Assembly: GCA_040002335.1 (NCBI GenBank)
Contig: JBDUEO010000001.1
Location: forward strand, 1-42,757
Length of the DNA: 42,757 nt
Source of the DNA: Parafilimonas sp.
GTDB lineage: Bacteria; Bacteroidota; Bacteroidia; Chitinophagales; Chitinophagaceae
Direction of reading: 5' to 3'
Shown here one piece after another: positions 2 to 5,323 of the stretch (position 1 is the first letter of the stretch; every line of letters begins with the position of its first letter). A model generated the notes under the pieces. That model saw only the letters and a list, made by a program, of their open reading frames with translations, ran no database searches and was not told the origin of the DNA. Both the position numbers and the translations under genes were made by a program.

Positions 2-673
2 AAAAGCACAACACCGCTTACATATTGGTTTTATGCGATATTCTTACAAACAACAACGCGCAACGGTGTTGCTGCAAAAGAACTTGAAAGACAATTATCA
101 ATATGCTACAAGACAGCATTAAGAATGTCACATCAAATTAAAATATTAATGGCTGATAAGAAGATTGATAAATTAACTGGTGTTGTGCAAATAGATGAAA
201 CATACATAGGAATGAAAATGATTAATAAGCATAGAAAAGAACGTGCAGAAATGAGAGAGAGCGGCGAAACACCAAAAGAAAATAAGACTGCTGTAATGGG
301 ATTTATTACAGACGATAAAAAGATAAAGTTTGAAGTAATGAACGATACCAAAACGTTTAAGGAAAGAGTAATAGCGAATGTTTCAAAAGATGCAATTATT
401 GTTACTGATAGTCACGCCGGTTATTCAGGCTTGAATTTACACCATGTTAAACATGAAGTAGTAAATCATATTGAAAATGAATTTGTGCGTAATGGTTACC
501 ATACAAACAGCATTGAGAACGCATGGTCTAATTTAAAGAGAACAATAAAAGGCACACATATACATGTTTCACCTAAGCATTTAAATAAGTATTGTGATGA
601 AGTAGCTTTTAGATTAATGAATAGAGATAAACAAGATGTAATGTTTGAAACTATTTTGAGCCACCTTGTTTAA
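2..673 (+). CDS. IS1595-family (ISXO2-like) DDE transposase, 5'-truncated by window edge
   Basis: Frame is open from base 2 (KSTTPLTYWFYAIF...GVAAKELERQLSICYKTALRM, HTH-like), then VQIDETYIG, TDSHAGY, VNH, HTNSIENAWSNLKR, HVSPKHLNKYCDEVAFR: the IS1595 catalytic motif series. Confidence 0.93.
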   Translation, partial: KSTTPLTYWFYAIFLQTTTRNGVAAKELERQLSICYKTALRMSHQIKILMADKKIDKLTGVVQIDETYIGMKMINKHRKERAEMRESGETPKENKTAVMGFITDDKKIKFEVMNDTKTFKERVIANVSKDAIIVTDSHAGYSGLNLHHVKHEVVNHIENEFVRNGYHTNSIENAWSNLKRTIKGTHIHVSPKHLNKYCDEVAFRLMNRDKQDVMFETILSHLV

Positions 674-809
674 CTGATACTGCTTTTGCCAAGGTATTAT
701 TAAATAATACCTTATTGCCTTCTTTATTTTCTTTATTTGCAATAAATTTCGCATACCCTGAACTAACTTCAAGCATCGTGAGGTTCTTCTTGCTCTTTGT
801 CTTCTTCAT
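651..809 (-). CDS. Small basic protein (52 aa) convergent on and overlapping the transposase 3' end; not in ORF track
   Basis: ATG at 809, TAG at 653-651: MKKTKSKKNLTMLEVSSGYAKFIANKENKEGNKVLFNNTLAKAVSVKQGGSK. Overlaps the upstream gene by 41 nt and the transposase by 23 nt. Confidence 0.6.
   Translation of the reverse strand: MKKTKSKKNLTMLEVSSGYAKFIANKENKEGNKVLFNNTLAKAVSVKQGGSK
691..713. repeat. 23-bp palindrome AAGGTATTATT-A-AATAATACCTT
   Basis: Perfect 11-bp arms with 1-nt spacer, 17 nt after the transposase stop. Confidence 0.7.
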
Positions 810-1281
810 GAGTTACATTTTCAGTTATTAAATTAGGTTGTGGCGCAAGCTCTTTGAATGCTTCATCCACATCCATACCCCCAAAAATTACTTTTAATAT
901 ATAGGGCATTGAAAAATCTATAATACCTGTATTGATATCAATTACTTTATCAATAATGCTATCATCAAGTTCTGTATTGGTAAAAAAGTTGCTTGTTCTA
1001 AATTTTATCAACCCCTGTCCTTCTTCTGTAGCTAATTCAAAATTACCATACCCTAAAGAAGTATTCATTCGGTTAAATAAATTTATAACCGCCTGTTGTT
1101 TTTCAGGTGGACAAAATGTGCCGCCAAAACTTAGAAAAATCATTAATAGACGCTCCTCCCTTATATCAATTACGCAATTATAAGTTGCATTAAAATGACT
1201 AACAGGAAATCTAATTATATTGCTATCTTGAGTAAACTTCCACTCTCTCTTCTGAAGGAACTCTATTATTTTGGAAATCAT
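769..1281 (-). CDS. YbjN-domain protein (CesT/type III chaperone-like fold)
   Basis: IIEFLQKREWKF...CPPEKQQAVINLFNRMNTSLGYGNFEL...IKFRTS matches the YbjN pattern; acidic tail. ATG 1281 (MISKIIEF) preferred over the track start at 1350. Confidence 0.75.
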   Translation of the reverse strand: MISKIIEFLQKREWKFTQDSNIIRFPVSHFNATYNCVIDIREERLLMIFLSFGGTFCPPEKQQAVINLFNRMNTSLGYGNFELATEEGQGLIKFRTSNFFTNTELDDSIIDKVIDINTGIIDFSMPYILKVIFGGMDVDEAFKELAPQPNLITENVTHEEDKEQEEPHDA

Positions 1282-1945
1282 TATAATTACCTTTACTAAA
1301 AACTTGTAAATAATTACACCCCTCCTTAACACTAACTGTTCCCGCCACATTTAAGGCAGTAAGTAGCGGTGAACCACGATGACCGGTTTGAAATCTAATT
1401 ATCTCACCATCGTTAACATATAAGCCTTCCTGCCAAATTACAGGCATGTGCCCAGTTTCATGCAAGTGAATAAATCTATTTTCATCCTTCATCACCACTT
1501 CCAAGTATGGACTAAGCGGAGTTTTTGATAAGGATAAAGTTTCATAAATTTTATTAAGATTTTTTGCATCTTCTTCTTCAAAAAAAGCATTATTACCTTT
1601 TAAATAATGTGCAGGATAGTTTTCAGATTTTTGAATTATATATTCGATAGTATCTAAAGAACTGTCTATATCAGTATAGAAAATATTTTCAGATGGGATT
1701 TTGTGTAGTAGTTCTCTATGGGATATTTTACCAAATATGAATTTGGATAATTCTTTTGTAGGAACATAATAAACAAGCCATCTATTTTCAGTTCCACCAA
1801 AATCAACAAAATCAAATAAATAAAAGCTATTTGTATTCACATTCTGGAATAATGACAACAAAGGAGCACCATCATTGATTAAATCACCAATGCGCTTTAA
1901 TTCAGCATTCAATTTGCTATTCTCTTTATTTATCAGCTTCTCCAT
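1223..1945 (-). CDS. DUF6575-like protein with ~100-aa C-terminal extension
   Basis: IGDLINDGAPLLSLF...FYLFDFVD...NRWLVYYV...LSKFIFGKISHRELL recalls DUF6575; overlaps both neighbours. Confidence 0.6.
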   Translation of the reverse strand: MEKLINKENSKLNAELKRIGDLINDGAPLLSLFQNVNTNSFYLFDFVDFGGTENRWLVYYVPTKELSKFIFGKISHRELLHKIPSENIFYTDIDSSLDTIEYIIQKSENYPAHYLKGNNAFFEEEDAKNLNKIYETLSLSKTPLSPYLEVVMKDENRFIHLHETGHMPVIWQEGLYVNDGEIIRFQTGHRGSPLLTALNVAGTVSVKEGCNYLQVFSKGNYNDFQNNRVPSEERVEVYSR

Positions 1946-2393
1946 TTACGCCTAATTCTTCGATAATTACATTAACTAAGTTACTTATTTTATCAACAAA
2001 AGTAATATTAATAAAATCGTAAAATGTAAAATGCCCGTATTTATCGGTTTCAGAACAAAGTCCATCTTCTTCCGTAATATTCACACATGCAATTTTATTT
2101 CCTTTTTCAATTAAATAAAGCTGCTGCAATTCTTCATTCTTTTTATTATAATAATGAAGAAATTTTTCTCTCGCTTGTATCGCACTTTCAAAAAAAGAAA
2201 TGCCGTAACTCATGCAATGTTTATCATTATTATCCAAAATTCTTGCAGGTGGGGAGTTTTGTAAACTCATTGGTAAAAAATCTTCTTCATTCCCTAAATC
2301 ATGAATATATCTATAGGCTGGCTTAGATTTAGGAACACAATTTTTAGGACAATTTTTAATACCAGTTATAAACTTAGAATATTTAAGTTCCAT
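1926..2393 (-). CDS. Hypothetical protein, putative ADP-ribosyltransferase-like fold toxin
   Basis: 155 aa with AYRYI (R), DFLP, GISFF (S-x-F) and GHFTFY (H), the strand-motif order seen in ART/Tse2-like folds; fold call is inference. Confidence 0.5.
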   Translation of the reverse strand: MELKYSKFITGIKNCPKNCVPKSKPAYRYIHDLGNEEDFLPMSLQNSPPARILDNNDKHCMSYGISFFESAIQAREKFLHYYNKKNEELQQLYLIEKGNKIACVNITEEDGLCSETDKYGHFTFYDFINITFVDKISNLVNVIIEELGVNGEADK

Positions 2394-2444
2394 TTTTTTT
2401 AATCAACCTTTATGATGCTAAAAATATTTAAAACTAAAATAAAA

Positions 2445-2837
2445 TTAATGTGCATTAATTAAGGAATCTATACGAGTATTCAAGTTTTGAATTTCTACAT
2501 CTTTAGACGTCTTATCAATTTTCCATAATAAAAAGCCTACAATTAAAGAAAATGCAGCGGCAATTATTGCAACTAATAAATCATGTAGTATAACATTTCT
2601 TTCATGCCACTTTGGTTCTGAATAATGGGGATTAAAAACAATTCTTTTTAAACCATTGGCTTTACCTATGTCGTCATGCTCAATGAATTTAGGAGACATC
2701 AAAAATCTAATCTGTATTCTTCTTTCTAAATCTCCATTTAATAGTTTAAGCTTGTTTTGTAGAAACCATTCAACCTTAATTGAATTATTAGAATGAATGT
2801 ATTCTAAACATTTTTCAAAAATTTCATCTTCATTCAT
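2445..2837 (-). CDS. Hypothetical protein with C-terminal TM helix and short coiled coil
   Basis: ATG 2837 (MNEDEIFEK); hydrophobic LLVAIIAAAFSLIVGFLLW followed by DVEIQNLNTRIDSL. Confidence 0.6.
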   Translation of the reverse strand: MNEDEIFEKCLEYIHSNNSIKVEWFLQNKLKLLNGDLERRIQIRFLMSPKFIEHDDIGKANGLKRIVFNPHYSEPKWHERNVILHDLLVAIIAAAFSLIVGFLLWKIDKTSKDVEIQNLNTRIDSLINAH

Positions 2838-2915
2838 CTTAACTTGAATATTACACGAATATAAAAAATTATATCCCCGAAACTCTCCCTCAAATACTTT
2901 TACAATTGACAATTA

Positions 2916-3068
2916 ATGAAGTGTGCAGAACATTATAAGAAGTTATATGACCAGTCAAGCAAATCACGAACGTTTGCAATAGTTGTTTTTTCTATCTTAT
3001 GTTTTGTGTTAGGCTATTTAGTTGCTAAATTGATTTATACACATCATCATTTAGACAATCTATTTTAA
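2916..3068 (+). CDS. Possible 50-aa single-TM protein (not in ORF track)
   Basis: MKCAEHYKKLYDQSSKSRTFAIVVFSILCFVLGYLVAKLIYTHHHLDNLF fills the intergenic gap and ends just before a hairpin. Confidence 0.4.
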   Translation: MKCAEHYKKLYDQSSKSRTFAIVVFSILCFVLGYLVAKLIYTHHHLDNLF

Positions 3069-3071
3069 AAT

Positions 3072-3098
3072 AAAAAAAGCCAGCTTGCGGTGCTGGCT
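3072..3098 (-). terminator. Intrinsic terminator of the KilA-N gene
   Basis: AGCCAGC-N7-GCTGGCT preceded by an A run on + (U tract on -), ~20 nt after the stop at 3120. Confidence 0.7.
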
Positions 3099-3119
3099 AA
3101 TCAAATTTTTATTATTGTA

Positions 3120-4025
3120 TCAAGCGTTAAGTTGCCTTGAGGGAAACATTGTGCCATCCGTTCTTAAATACCCAACAAATTCTCCTGAAACATTTTTGCG
3201 CATTGAATTCGATGGATATACCCTTTCAAATGTTATTAATTGTGATTTCCGAACTTCCACAAGTTTCTTTAACCGAACATCAAAAGCAATATTTTCCTTA
3301 AGCATTTCAGCATTTATGCCTTCTAAACTTGACAATACCATCAGTTCGTTAATACTGGCATATTCACGTACATTTCTGCCTTGTGCGGCAAGTTGCACAT
3401 TTGCTTCTCGCCATTGCTTTGCCGTAAACCCCCACATGGCTAAATTTAAAATATCTCCTTCCTCAGCATAGGCAATAAAATGCTTAGATACATGTAAATT
3501 AGAAATTGGTATTTTAAAATTTTTCACTGCATCTGTTTGAACATGATACTGCGCTTTACATAACAGCCGATGAACATTCCAGCCAACATTATTAGAATTG
3601 TTTTCAATTTCTTTCAACCGTTGGAATTCCTTTATTAAATATAACTTGAACGTTGGACTAATTGCTGCACCAAATTCAAAAGCAATATCCTTGTGAGCAA
3701 ATGTGCCACCTTGTTTACCAGCTTTAGAATAAATTCCTACCGCTTCCGTTTTATTTACCCATTCAGTTACACTTAAACTAAAAGTTTTCAACCCTGCCGA
3801 ATTTTTAATACCCTCGAATTCGAGTACTTTAAATAATTGCGGGTTGTTTAGCATTTCCCATACGCCTAAAAATTCAATAGTACTTCTGTTGCGAAGCCAA
3901 TTACTTATTGTCTTTGCAGACTTTGATTCATCACTATTTACTTTCACCATATCTGTTAGACAGATATAATCATCTTCAACAGCGATTGAAACTCCCTGAA
4001 CTTTAATTACATCATGATTTCTCAT
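3120..4025 (-). CDS. KilA-N domain DNA-binding protein
   Basis: DYICLTDM, ISNWLRNRSTIEFLGVWE, SKAGKQGGTFAHKDIAFEFG, ISPTFKLYLIKEFQRLK. Confidence 0.9.
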   Translation of the reverse strand: MRNHDVIKVQGVSIAVEDDYICLTDMVKVNSDESKSAKTISNWLRNRSTIEFLGVWEMLNNPQLFKVLEFEGIKNSAGLKTFSLSVTEWVNKTEAVGIYSKAGKQGGTFAHKDIAFEFGAAISPTFKLYLIKEFQRLKEIENNSNNVGWNVHRLLCKAQYHVQTDAVKNFKIPISNLHVSKHFIAYAEEGDILNLAMWGFTAKQWREANVQLAAQGRNVREYASINELMVLSSLEGINAEMLKENIAFDVRLKKLVEVRKSQLITFERVYPSNSMRKNVSGEFVGYLRTDGTMFPSRQLNA

Positions 4026-4108
4026 CCTATTTGTTTTAAATATTAATGCGTGCTTCTACGCCTTATTTATTTAAACAACCATTTCAAAAGAAGCTTGAAA
4101 AGAAAAAA

Positions 4109-4140
4109 TTTGGTGAGAATAGTTAGTGGTGTTACTTTTG
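4109..4140 (+). promoter_or_regulatory. Bacteroidota sigma70-type promoter firing antisense to the KilA-N leader
   Basis: TTTG (4109-4112)-N20-TACTTTTG (4133-4140) fits the -33/-7 consensus TTTG-N19-21-TAnnTTTG. Confidence 0.6.
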
Positions 4141-4144
4141 TGCT

Positions 4145-4223
4145 ATAATATCGAGTAACACATTCCTATTTAACAGACAAATTTTTTAAACCTCATCACC
4201 GCAAATGATGGGGTTTATTGTTT
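4145..4223 (+). ncRNA. Putative ~75-80-nt cis-antisense sRNA
   Basis: Lies between the + strand promoter and a 12-bp hairpin (4187-4217) whose single imperfection is a G-U pair only on the + strand; no ORF. Confidence 0.4.
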
Positions 4224-4234
4224 AACACATCTTA

Positions 4235-4265
4235 CAAAGATATTCATTATATAGCATTTTTCAAA
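4235..4265 (-). promoter_or_regulatory. Promoter of the KilA-N gene
   Basis: Minus strand TTTG (4265-4262)-N19-TATCTTTG (4242-4235), giving a ~200-nt leader. Confidence 0.65.
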
Positions 4266-4280
4266 ATGCATAACTGAATC

Positions 4281-4437
4281 TGATTATTTGGTAGATATAT
4301 CCCCAAAACACAAACTATTTTAATGCGAAAAATAAATTGTTAAAATAATTAGTTTGCCTTCTTGTGTCTTGGGTACATATATGCCTAAAAAGGTATATCT
4401 GTAGCCGACATAACTGTGTATTGAGTTTATATATCCC
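4281..4437. repeat. Three degenerate direct 23-mers, candidate IS1595 terminal repeats
   Basis: TGATTATTTGGTAGATATATCCC (4281), TGTGTCTTGGGTACATATATGCC (4363), TGTGTATTGAGTTTATATATCCC (4415); pairwise 17-18/23 identical. Confidence 0.6.
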
Positions 4438-4573
4438 GTAGAAAAGTATTAATTAAACCTAACACCTTCTAAAAATATTAACTGATAAAAATTTCGTTTT
4501 ATTGGCAATGCATTGAACTGCCAAATATTATTAATCATCCTTTATTACATACATTTGTGCTAATTTTTTACTA

Positions 4574-5323
4574 ATGGAAAACATGGAATATAATACCGGA
4601 CGCAGTGATATGAGCATGCGTGAATACGGTCGCCACATTCAGAAAATGGTAGAGTATCTTCTTACACTTGAAGACAAAGAAGAAAGACAACAACAAGCCC
4701 AGGTTGTAATTGAACTGATGGGTTTTTTAAATCCGCATTTAAAAAATGTAGAAGATTTCAGGCATAAGTTATGGGATCATCTTTTTTTTATAAGTGGCTT
4801 TAAATTGCAGGTTGATAGCCCCTATCCAATTCCTACTAAAGAAACGTATAAGCAAAAACCAGATCCGCTGCCTTATCCAAAACGTTATCCAAAATATTCT
4901 CATCTTGGTAAAAATCTTGAACTGATTGTTGATAAAGCACTGAAAGAACAAGACGCTGAAAAAAAACAAGGTTTTGCAAATTCTATTGCTTATTATATGA
5001 AGCTGGCTTACAGCAACTGGCATAAAGAACTTGTGCATGATGATGCTATACGCAGCGAACTAAAAAGCATTACAGGCGGCGAACTTGAATTTAGCAATAC
5101 ACCGTTTATTAAACATCGCACCCAGAATTTTGAACGCGATGATTATCGCAGTAATAACACCGGAAGAAGGCAAAATTTTGGCGGCAGAGACAGCCGTAGT
5201 AGTAATAATAACCGCGATAACCGTAACCAGAATGGTAACGGCGGCAGAGATAGCCGCAATGGTAATGTCGGCAGAGATAATCGCGATAACCGTAACCAAA
5301 ACTTCAAGAAGAGGTTTAAATAA
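4574..5323 (+). CDS. DUF4290 domain protein with R/N/G/D low-complexity tail
   Basis: MEYNTGR...EYGRHIQKMVEY...NPHLKNVEDFRHKLWDHLFFIS is the conserved Bacteroidota DUF4290 signature. Confidence 0.9.
   Translation: MENMEYNTGRSDMSMREYGRHIQKMVEYLLTLEDKEERQQQAQVVIELMGFLNPHLKNVEDFRHKLWDHLFFISGFKLQVDSPYPIPTKETYKQKPDPLPYPKRYPKYSHLGKNLELIVDKALKEQDAEKKQGFANSIAYYMKLAYSNWHKELVHDDAIRSELKSITGGELEFSNTPFIKHRTQNFERDDYRSNNTGRRQNFGGRDSRSSNNNRDNRNQNGNGGRDSRNGNVGRDNRDNRNQNFKKRFK

What the first reader, a model, noticed from the sequence alone, without database searches (positions are those of the whole stretch)
769..2393. Candidate new toxin-partner-chaperone system: ART-like protein + DUF6575-like protein + YbjN/CesT-fold chaperone, as IS1595 cargo
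Seen: three co-oriented genes overlap (20 nt and 59 nt), suggesting translational coupling. Gene 1 has R...SxF...H motifs (AYRYI, GISFF, GHFTFY); gene 2 has a DUF6575-like domain plus a ~100-aa extension; gene 3 looks like YbjN. Established: toxin-antitoxin-chaperone systems (HigBAC; CmdTAC with an ADP-ribosyltransferase toxin) use this gene order, with an antitoxin C-terminal extension bound by a SecB-like chaperone, and act in phage defence. Inference: this is an analogous tripartite system where a type III-chaperone-fold protein replaces SecB. I know of no description of it.
Basis: partly seen in the sequence, partly recalled or inferred. Interest (0 to 1): 0.8.

Follow-up and report, generated by a model that had tools for sequence, protein, structure and literature searches.

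The report
Three-gene toxin module with YbjN chaperone
Three overlapping genes form a recurring unit, found mostly in Bacteroidota and related to the anti-phage system PD-T4-10: likely a toxin held in check by a partner whose floppy tail would depend on a type of chaperone that our literature searches did not find reported for such systems.

Summary
Gene 1 folds like an ADP-ribosyltransferase with near-invariant R28/S66/H121. Gene 2 is a DUF6575-family domain plus a ~100-aa unstructured tail. Gene 3 is YbjN-family. The trio recurs in 22 of 29 loci found from gene 1 and 6 of 33 found from gene 2. Gene 3 always follows a tailed partner (one deleted case aside), never a partner with a folded C-terminal domain or no tail. 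Best reading (0.5): a TAC-like variant of PD-T4-10 with gene 1 as toxin. Orphan, tandem and HTH-fused gene-2 domains support this. Against it: in E. coli the longer B protein was toxic and A neutralised it (PMC9519451), one locus keeps A and B with the chaperone broken, and the tail-chaperone link may have a single origin. No complex prediction could be run, so binding, toxicity and defence are untested. The IS1595 link is local: the genes sit in an island bounded by 51-nt direct repeats. Ten literature searches and three look-ups of this scan's notes found no description.

The parts
1926..2393 (-). Gene 1 (A): PD-T4-10A homologue, 155 aa, predicted ADP-ribosyltransferase-like fold, conserved R28, S66, H121, C15, C60; likely toxin (inferred)
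   Evidence: PADLOC PD-T4-10_A E 4e-20; AF2 model pLDDT 92; fold matches to ART/NADase-fold chains, best Z 6.1, rmsd 3.2, 88 aligned; conservation
1526..1945 (-). Gene 2 (B) N-terminal domain, residues ~1-140: DUF6575 / PD-T4-10B N-domain; likely antitoxin (inferred)
   Evidence: PADLOC PD-T4-10_B residues 15-129 on profile 16-127 of 353, E 2.2e-13; DUF6575 in 10 of 18 family members; confident model for 1-140; no fold match above Z 3.8
1223..1525 (-). Gene 2 (B) C-terminal tail, residues ~141-240: unconserved, mostly low-confidence in the model; candidate chaperone-addiction-like element
   Evidence: pLDDT <50 over 147-168, 190-228, 235-240; column identity 0.08-0.14 vs 0.23-0.62 in the core; pN/pS 0.50-0.94 vs 0.26-0.40 in the core
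769..1281 (-). Gene 3 (C): YbjN-family (type III secretion chaperone-like) protein, 170 aa; predicted chaperone or sensor
   Evidence: Pfam YbjN E 0.0094; 18 of 18 family members hit YbjN; fold of the family from the literature (PMC9503650 passage), not modelled here
2..673 (+). 3' part of an IS1595-family transposase, convergent with the module
   Evidence: NF033547 E 4.4e-51; PF12762 E 4.2e-33
2445..2834 (-). 129-aa ORF with a hydrophobic stretch upstream of gene 1; island passenger, not part of the family
   Evidence: no tblastn hit in 36 related loci
3120..4025 (-). KilA-N protein (PADLOC candidate PDC-S22); island passenger
   Evidence: PF04383 E 5e-20; PDC-S22 E 4.5e-102
4470..4520 (.). 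Right copy of a 51-nt direct repeat bounding the island; left copy on contig C309 after the TPM-domain genes
   Evidence: 98% identical copy at C309 1149-1199; empty site, with the C309 flank gene next to the window's 4574 gene, in 5 of 14 relative loci

Best explanation
The three genes are a conserved tripartite variant of the PD-T4-10 family that likely works like a toxin-antitoxin-chaperone (TAC) anti-phage switch. Shown: the homologies, the predicted ART-like fold of A, the unstructured variable tail of B, and the restriction of the YbjN gene to tailed B. Inferred: A is an NAD+-using toxin with an R-S-H site; the DUF6575 domain of B binds and neutralises it; the tail makes B unstable unless the YbjN protein C holds it; a phage protein that competes for C would free the tail, B would be lost, and A would stop the infected cell.
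For: (1) Co-occurrence: 22 of 29 A-first loci and 6 of 33 B-first loci have A-B-C in this order, 23 distinct sequences besides the window. All have a 63-106-aa hydrophilic tail, except L035 where B is cut by a deletion. None of the 41 other loci has C; with two exceptions (L066, L088) their B is long or carries another domain, ends in a short leucine/glutamate-rich extension, has no tail, or is broken (4 of the 41 end too close to judge). (2) Four genomes with C-less systems have no C-family gene anywhere; the control has one. (3) Inside the tailed clade, loss of C goes with tail replacement by an HhH domain (L053) or shortening to 52 aa (L066). L069 has tail+C on an A/B pair whose nearest BLAST neighbours are C-less. 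(4) The tail meets several ChAD traits described in the Mets preprint: C-terminal, disordered, most variable part, aromatic residues. (5) For B as antitoxin: intact DUF6575 frames without A in six loci (L077, L080, L083, L085, L091, L096), no A found in 0 of 4 such genomes searched while the control was positive; L080 keeps the residue set of A-paired B proteins; tandem A-B-B (L093) and an ArsR-HTH fusion (L082); L049 has A frameshifted with B and C intact. (6) The E. coli-type C-terminal domain of B, absent here, occurs as a stand-alone gene, so the published B toxicity may reside there. (7) CmdT alone is non-toxic because it is insoluble without its antitoxin (PMC11618068), a precedent for an ART toxin scoring as harmless alone.
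Against: In E. coli PD-T4-10, B alone was toxic, A neutralised it, A could not be deleted and B could (PMC9519451). L035 lost most of B with A and C intact (1,050-bp contig), and L027 keeps A and B intact with C split by an insertion; both are awkward for a lethal A. The tail+C trait may have arisen once: AU test does not reject one clade including L069 (p 0.42), so the loci are not independent. No ClpXP-type degron: 11 of 51 tailed B end in Ala, largely explained by overlap with the ATG of C, and the window's ends in ...YSR. The best fold Z (6.1) is below the tool's typical background of 7-8 and Foldseek gave no E<=0.001 hit. YbjN homologues also stand alone: 0 of 5 found from C lay beside A or B. 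Orphan B genes may be silent, and divergent A genes in trans could be missed.
Confidence: 0.5

Rival explanations
1. Same three-part unit with the E. coli roles: B (DUF6575) is the toxin, the ART-fold A is the antitoxin (by binding or by ADP-ribosylating B), and C is an effector-type chaperone that keeps tailed B soluble or silent, as type III secretion chaperones do for effectors (recalled).
For: Published genetics of PD-T4-10. L035 (B deleted, A and C intact) and L027 (C broken, A and B intact) are harmless under this model. B has invariant polar residues R18, D21, D45, D48, N54, R55, W56 that could be an active site.
Against: DUF6575 frames without A persist in six loci, with no A found in four genomes searched. 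L049 has a broken A with intact B (may be a homopolymer error). The domain that could explain E. coli toxicity is missing here.
Confidence: 0.25
2. A and B form a plain two-gene pair. C is an accessory protein (a phage sensor, or a TY-chaperone for ADP-ribosylated proteins as proposed for ARG-centred systems) and the tail is a remnant kept open only to couple translation of C.
For: The tail evolves nearly neutrally (pN/pS 0.50-0.94) and shares no motif across the family. TY-chaperones are proposed to bind ADP-ribosylated targets in other NAD+/ADPr conflict systems (PMC9503650). One origin of tail+C is not rejected.
Against: A neutral spacer would be expected to shrink, yet tails stay at 63-106 aa over A proteins 27-49% identical to the window's. 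The frame stays open (chance 4e-4 for 95 codons at this composition). Tail-less B never has C.
Confidence: 0.2
3. The window holds a truncated, decaying PD-T4-10 next to an unrelated YbjN gene picked up by chance in a mobile island.
For: B is much shorter than E. coli-type B (240 vs about 340-440 aa); genes 2 and 3 had no close relatives in single-sequence searches.
Against: The same architecture recurs in 23 other distinct loci across several orders, with purifying selection on A, the B core and C (pN/pS 0.16-0.41) and broadly matching A and C trees.
Confidence: 0.05

Closest known systems
PD-T4-10 (Vassallo et al. 2022, PMC9519451)
   Same: Genes 1 and 2 are homologues of A and of the N-terminal third of B, in the same order and overlapping.
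   Different: B lacks the ~210-aa C-terminal domain of the E. coli type and has a disordered tail; a third, YbjN gene is added. The paper and its HHpred table give no function or ART hit for A. Toxin and antitoxin roles may differ.
TAC systems: CmdTAC (PD-T4-9), HigBAC, MqsRAC (PMC11618068; bioRxiv 2024.02.24.581848)
   Same: Gene order toxin-like, tailed partner, chaperone; ART-fold first gene as in CmdT; variable disordered C-terminal extension of about 100 aa, like the 96-aa HigA ChAD.
   Different: The chaperone is YbjN-family, not SecB-like; the ART has R-S-H rather than CmdT's H-Y-[E,D,Q] triad; B is DUF6575; no clear ClpXP degron; no PADLOC PD-T4-9 hit.
TY-chaperones (T3SS/YbjN fold) in ARG-centred NAD+/ADPr conflict systems (PMC9503650)
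   Same: A YbjN-fold chaperone in an ADP-ribose-related, predicted anti-phage operon.
   Different: Those operons are built on ADP-ribosylglycohydrolases, phosphatases and repressors; no ART-DUF6575 pair or tailed partner appears in the passages read.
Tse2 and RES-type ART-fold toxins (MbcT, ParT, VPA0770, TreX)
   Same: Top structural neighbours of the gene 1 model. An R-S-H triad in Tse2 is recalled, not confirmed by a call (search 96 did not return it).
   Different: No sequence similarity; Tse2 ranks only 48th, Z 3.1; substrate of gene 1 unknown.

Membership tests
PD-T4-10 | Gene A homologue upstream of and overlapping gene B | tested here: met
   PD-T4-10_A E 4e-20 over 2-137; 20-nt overlap
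PD-T4-10 | Full-length B (N-domain plus C-terminal domain, about 350 aa) | tested here: not met
   Only profile positions 16-127 of 353 match, whereas L036, L037 and P0217 match end to end
PD-T4-10 | B toxic, neutralised by A; abortive defence against T-even phages | not testable with these tools
   Experimental property
TAC systems | Conserved three-gene operon: toxin, antitoxin, chaperone | tested here: met
   Order conserved in 22 of 29 and 6 of 33 loci; roles themselves inferred
TAC systems | SecB-like chaperone | tested here: not met
   Gene 3 family hits YbjN in 18 of 18 members and no other Pfam family at E<=0.01
TAC systems | Disordered, variable C-terminal extension on the second gene | tested here: met
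TAC systems | Extension is bound by the chaperone and makes the antitoxin chaperone-dependent | not tested
   No complex prediction could be run; needs experiment
TAC systems | C-terminal aliphatic-Ala ClpXP degron (some members only) | tested here: inconclusive
   11 of 51 tailed B end in Ala, confounded by overlap with the next ATG; absent in the window's copy
ADP-ribosyltransferase fold superfamily | ART-like split beta-sheet fold | tested here: met
   The 50 listed VIA-align matches are ART/NADase-fold proteins by title or my recall; best Z 6.1, so the evidence is their uniformity, not one score; nearest named Atlas cluster is Arr-ms at 0.79, a lead only
ADP-ribosyltransferase fold superfamily | Catalytic triad and NAD+-dependent activity | tested here: inconclusive
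   R28 starts strand E24-30's core, S66 lies in E65-68 and H121 in E121-127, all near-invariant; residue-level superposition and activity not available
IS1595 element with passenger genes | Cargo enclosed with the transposase by terminal inverted repeats | tested here: inconclusive
   No inverted repeat found between the C309 left flank and window 661-4600; a 51-nt direct repeat bounds the island instead; the middle of the island is an assembly gap

The most novel reading that the evidence does not exclude
A TAC-type anti-phage switch that uses a type III secretion/YbjN-fold chaperone instead of SecB, built on an R-S-H ADP-ribosyltransferase toxin. PD-T4-10 is then a modular family in which A is the enzyme and the DUF6575 domain is its inhibitor, fitted with interchangeable C-terminal modules (second toxin, HTH, HhH, OB-like, coiled coil, or chaperone-addiction tail plus YbjN).
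Probability: 0.45. Interest if true: 0.82.

Novelty: new variant of a known kind. Interest (0 to 1): 0.7.

Why it matters
If right, chaperone addiction has evolved with a second chaperone fold, in a phylum outside SecB's usual Pseudomonadota range (as described in the Mets preprint). It would give YbjN proteins a defined client and a role in phage sensing. It also gives the first mechanistic handle found here on PD-T4-10, whose two proteins had no predicted function: A has an ART-like fold with a testable R-S-H site, and the natural variants (tail-less, orphan, HTH-fused, tailed) make the toxin/antitoxin question directly testable.

Tried and rejected
Complex prediction of B with a C dimer was not available, so nothing was folded. 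Single-sequence searches with genes 2 and 3 returned only themselves. Viral contigs gave no relatives, nor did phages and plasmids with gene 1 or plasmids with a tail-less B; an E. coli-type B found nothing in phages. No fold match for the B domain (best Z 3.8) or its tail. PDB sequence searches with the A and C profiles gave only chance hits; PHROGs had none for the three genes. No sequencing run was listed. No convincing promoter upstream of gene 1 (4 sites vs 14 expected by chance). Rejected: a frameshift joining genes 2 and 3 into one long B (gene 3 has its own start and RBS, B and C profiles are unrelated, and both are separate throughout the family); an HExxH peptidase or 'GSF' motif in the tail (not conserved); a conserved C-terminal degron; a second independent origin of tail+C (suggested, not established). 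Literature searches: PD-T4-10 (3 papers), with ADP-ribosyltransferase (same 3), YbjN+phage+defense+toxin-antitoxin (2), DUF6575 (2), TAC+YbjN (0), YbjN+anti-phage (1), CesT+chaperone addiction+antitoxin (0); subscription papers and bioRxiv supplements were not searchable.

Full report
Observation. The window starts inside an IS1595-family transposase (2-673, +). Facing it on the minus strand are three ORFs: 2393-1926 (A, 155 aa), 1945-1223 (B, 240 aa) and 1281-769 (C, 170 aa), overlapping by 20 and 59 nt.

Identity. A matches PADLOC PD-T4-10_A (E 4e-20). B matches only positions 16-127 of the 353-position PD-T4-10_B profile (E 2.2e-13). PD-T4-10 is a two-gene E. coli anti-phage system. In passages of PMC9519451, neither protein had a predicted function, B was toxic, A neutralised it, A could not be deleted, and deleting B abolished defence; its HHpred table lists no ART hit for A (supplement part 3). 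The window's B has no Pfam hit of note, but 10 of 18 close homologues hit DUF6575. C hits YbjN weakly (E 0.0094), and 18 of 18 family members hit it.

Gene 1 fold. A has 398 relatives at E<=0.001 among 50%-identity representatives. With 138 sequences the model reached pLDDT 92. The 50 listed VIA-align matches are ART/NADase-fold proteins by title or by my recall (MbcT, RES toxins, TreX, DarT, Tpt1, Tse2 and others). The best Z is 6.1, below the tool's usual background of 7-8, and Foldseek gave no E<=0.001 hit, so the fold call rests on the uniformity of the list. R28, S66 and H121 are kept in 135, 138 and 135 of 138 rows; C15 and C60 in 136 and 137. Activity is inferred.

Gene 2 anatomy. Residues 1-140 model confidently and match no solved fold (best Z 3.8); most of 147-240 has pLDDT below 50, with a weak hairpin at 171-188. 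Across 18 tailed members the tail is 63-104 aa, hydrophilic, mostly basic, 8-18% aromatic, with column identity 0.08-0.14 against 0.23-0.62 in the core. In six close pairs, pN/pS is 0.50-0.94 in the tail and 0.16-0.41 in A, the B core and C; a 95-codon open frame at this composition has probability 4e-4. Length is conserved and sequence is not.

Conservation of the trio. A five-sequence alignment of A found 12 metagenome and 17 genome loci. In 22 of these 29, a C-family gene directly follows B; removing three duplicates leaves 19. Named hosts include Cytophagales, Saprospiraceae, Sphingobacterium, Tannerella, Chitinophagaceae, one Chlorobiota and one Thiomargarita bin. A search from B over 642 genomes gave 33 loci, 6 with C, 4 of them new. 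Seven loci from earlier profile searches have no C (weak hit L005 was not evaluated). All C-bearing loci have the tail except L035, where B is deleted. The 41 loci without C have a long B (E. coli-type, PDC-M63B-like, or unassigned), an HhH or ArsR-HTH fusion, a short L/E-rich extension, no tail, or a broken gene; four end too near B to judge, and some others give under 300 nt downstream. Exceptions with a tail-like end and no C are L066 (52 aa, intact A) and L088 (no A). Four genomes with C-less systems have no C-family gene. The system is rare: 0 of 400 genomes of the window's family gave a tripartite locus. YbjN homologues also occur alone (0 of 5 beside A or B).

Phylogeny. C presence is clustered on the A tree (3 changes against 11 shuffled) and the B-domain tree (5 against 17), and the C tree broadly repeats the A groupings. 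L069 carries tail+C on an A/B pair closest to C-less lineages, but one origin is not rejected (p-AU 0.42); a clade of C-bearing rows alone is rejected (p-AU 0.017), which implies losses. The correlation is therefore strong but rests on few events.

Which gene is the toxin. For A: intact DUF6575 frames lie without A in L077, L080, L083, L085, L091 and L096, two of them after what looks by eye like the first codons of a deleted A. No A was found in 0 of 4 such genomes searched, with a positive control. L080 keeps the residue set of A-paired B proteins; L083 and L085 are more diverged. L093 is A-B-B, and L082 fuses an HTH. L049 has A frameshifted in an A-run with B and C intact; L084 and L034 have both broken. 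The C-terminal domain of E. coli-type B exists as a separate gene, after ogr in a P2-like prophage and in a Vibrio record, so it could carry the published toxicity. CmdT alone is non-toxic because it is insoluble (passages of PMC11618068; whole text of the correction PMC11445053). For B: the E. coli genetics, L035 (B deleted, A and C intact) and L027 (C split by an insertion, A and B intact). I put A-as-toxin with a chaperone-dependent B at 0.5, reversed roles at 0.25, an accessory C at 0.2.

Comparison with TAC. Passages of bioRxiv 2024.02.24.581848 define the ChAD as a C-terminal disordered, variable element with aromatic residues, bound by a SecB-like chaperone and sometimes ending in a ClpXP degron. 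The tail fits the first three traits. The degron is not evident (11 of 51 end in Ala, confounded by the next ATG). The chaperone is not SecB-like. So it likely works like a TAC but is not a member as defined. YbjN-fold chaperones were noted in other ADP-ribose conflict operons (passages of PMC9503650). A review preprint lists PD-T4-10 as of unknown function (passage). Binding of C to the tail remains open because no complex prediction could be run.

Mobile context. A 51-nt sequence at 4470-4520 recurs on contig C309, followed there by a small ORF, an excisionase-like ORF (label from my recall) and a second IS1595 transposase 84% identical over 180 nt. In 5 of 14 relative loci the C309 flank gene lies next to the window's 4574 gene, an empty site. 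The module is thus cargo of an island with at least two transposase copies; terminal inverted repeats were not found. Only 1 of 36 other loci had an IS1595 transposase nearby (L055, a C-less system).

Verdict. A real, recurring and, in the ten searches made, undescribed three-gene variant of PD-T4-10, with an ART-like first gene and a YbjN-family third gene tied to a disordered tail. New variant of a known kind; interest 0.7.

Noticed in passing
window 4470-4520 and G000 contig C309 1149-1199: An island with at least two IS1595 transposase copies is bounded by 51-nt direct repeats, much longer than a usual target duplication, and carries an excisionase-like ORF upstream of the transposase; L055 has the same small ORF plus IS1595 transposase beside a two-gene PD-T4-10-like pair.
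   Followed up: partly
window 3120-4025 (-): KilA-N protein matching PADLOC candidate PDC-S22 (E 4.5e-102), a second candidate defence gene in the island, followed by a terminator-like hairpin at 3078-3098.
   Followed up: no
L062 2986-3627 and L063 2995-3633: The C-terminal domain of E. coli-type PD-T4-10B occurs as a stand-alone ~213-aa gene after ogr in a P2-like prophage and among cassette-like genes in Vibrio; candidate single-gene defence effector with no Pfam or PHROG hit.
   Followed up: partly
L004, L006, L008, L009, L026, L053, L079, L082, L093: The DUF6575 domain is fused to many different C-terminal modules (PDC-M63B-like, DUF4332 HhH, ArsR HTH, others) or duplicated in tandem; in G1068 and G1562 five matches each were found.
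   Followed up: partly
window 2122-2351 region, gene 1 codons for C15 and C60: Two cysteines are nearly invariant in the A family (136 and 137 of 138), with H121; a disulfide or metal site is possible and could act as a redox switch.
   Followed up: no
window 691-713: A 10-bp AT-rich hairpin lies between the convergent transposase and gene 3 (seen by eye, not reported by the terminator scan).
   Followed up: no
L057 1495-1968 and L058 1477-2010: Stand-alone YbjN genes close to the system's C family follow a TerB-like gene (label from my recall) and an ankyrin-repeat gene, next to an acyltransferase, in two genomes of one family.
   Followed up: no
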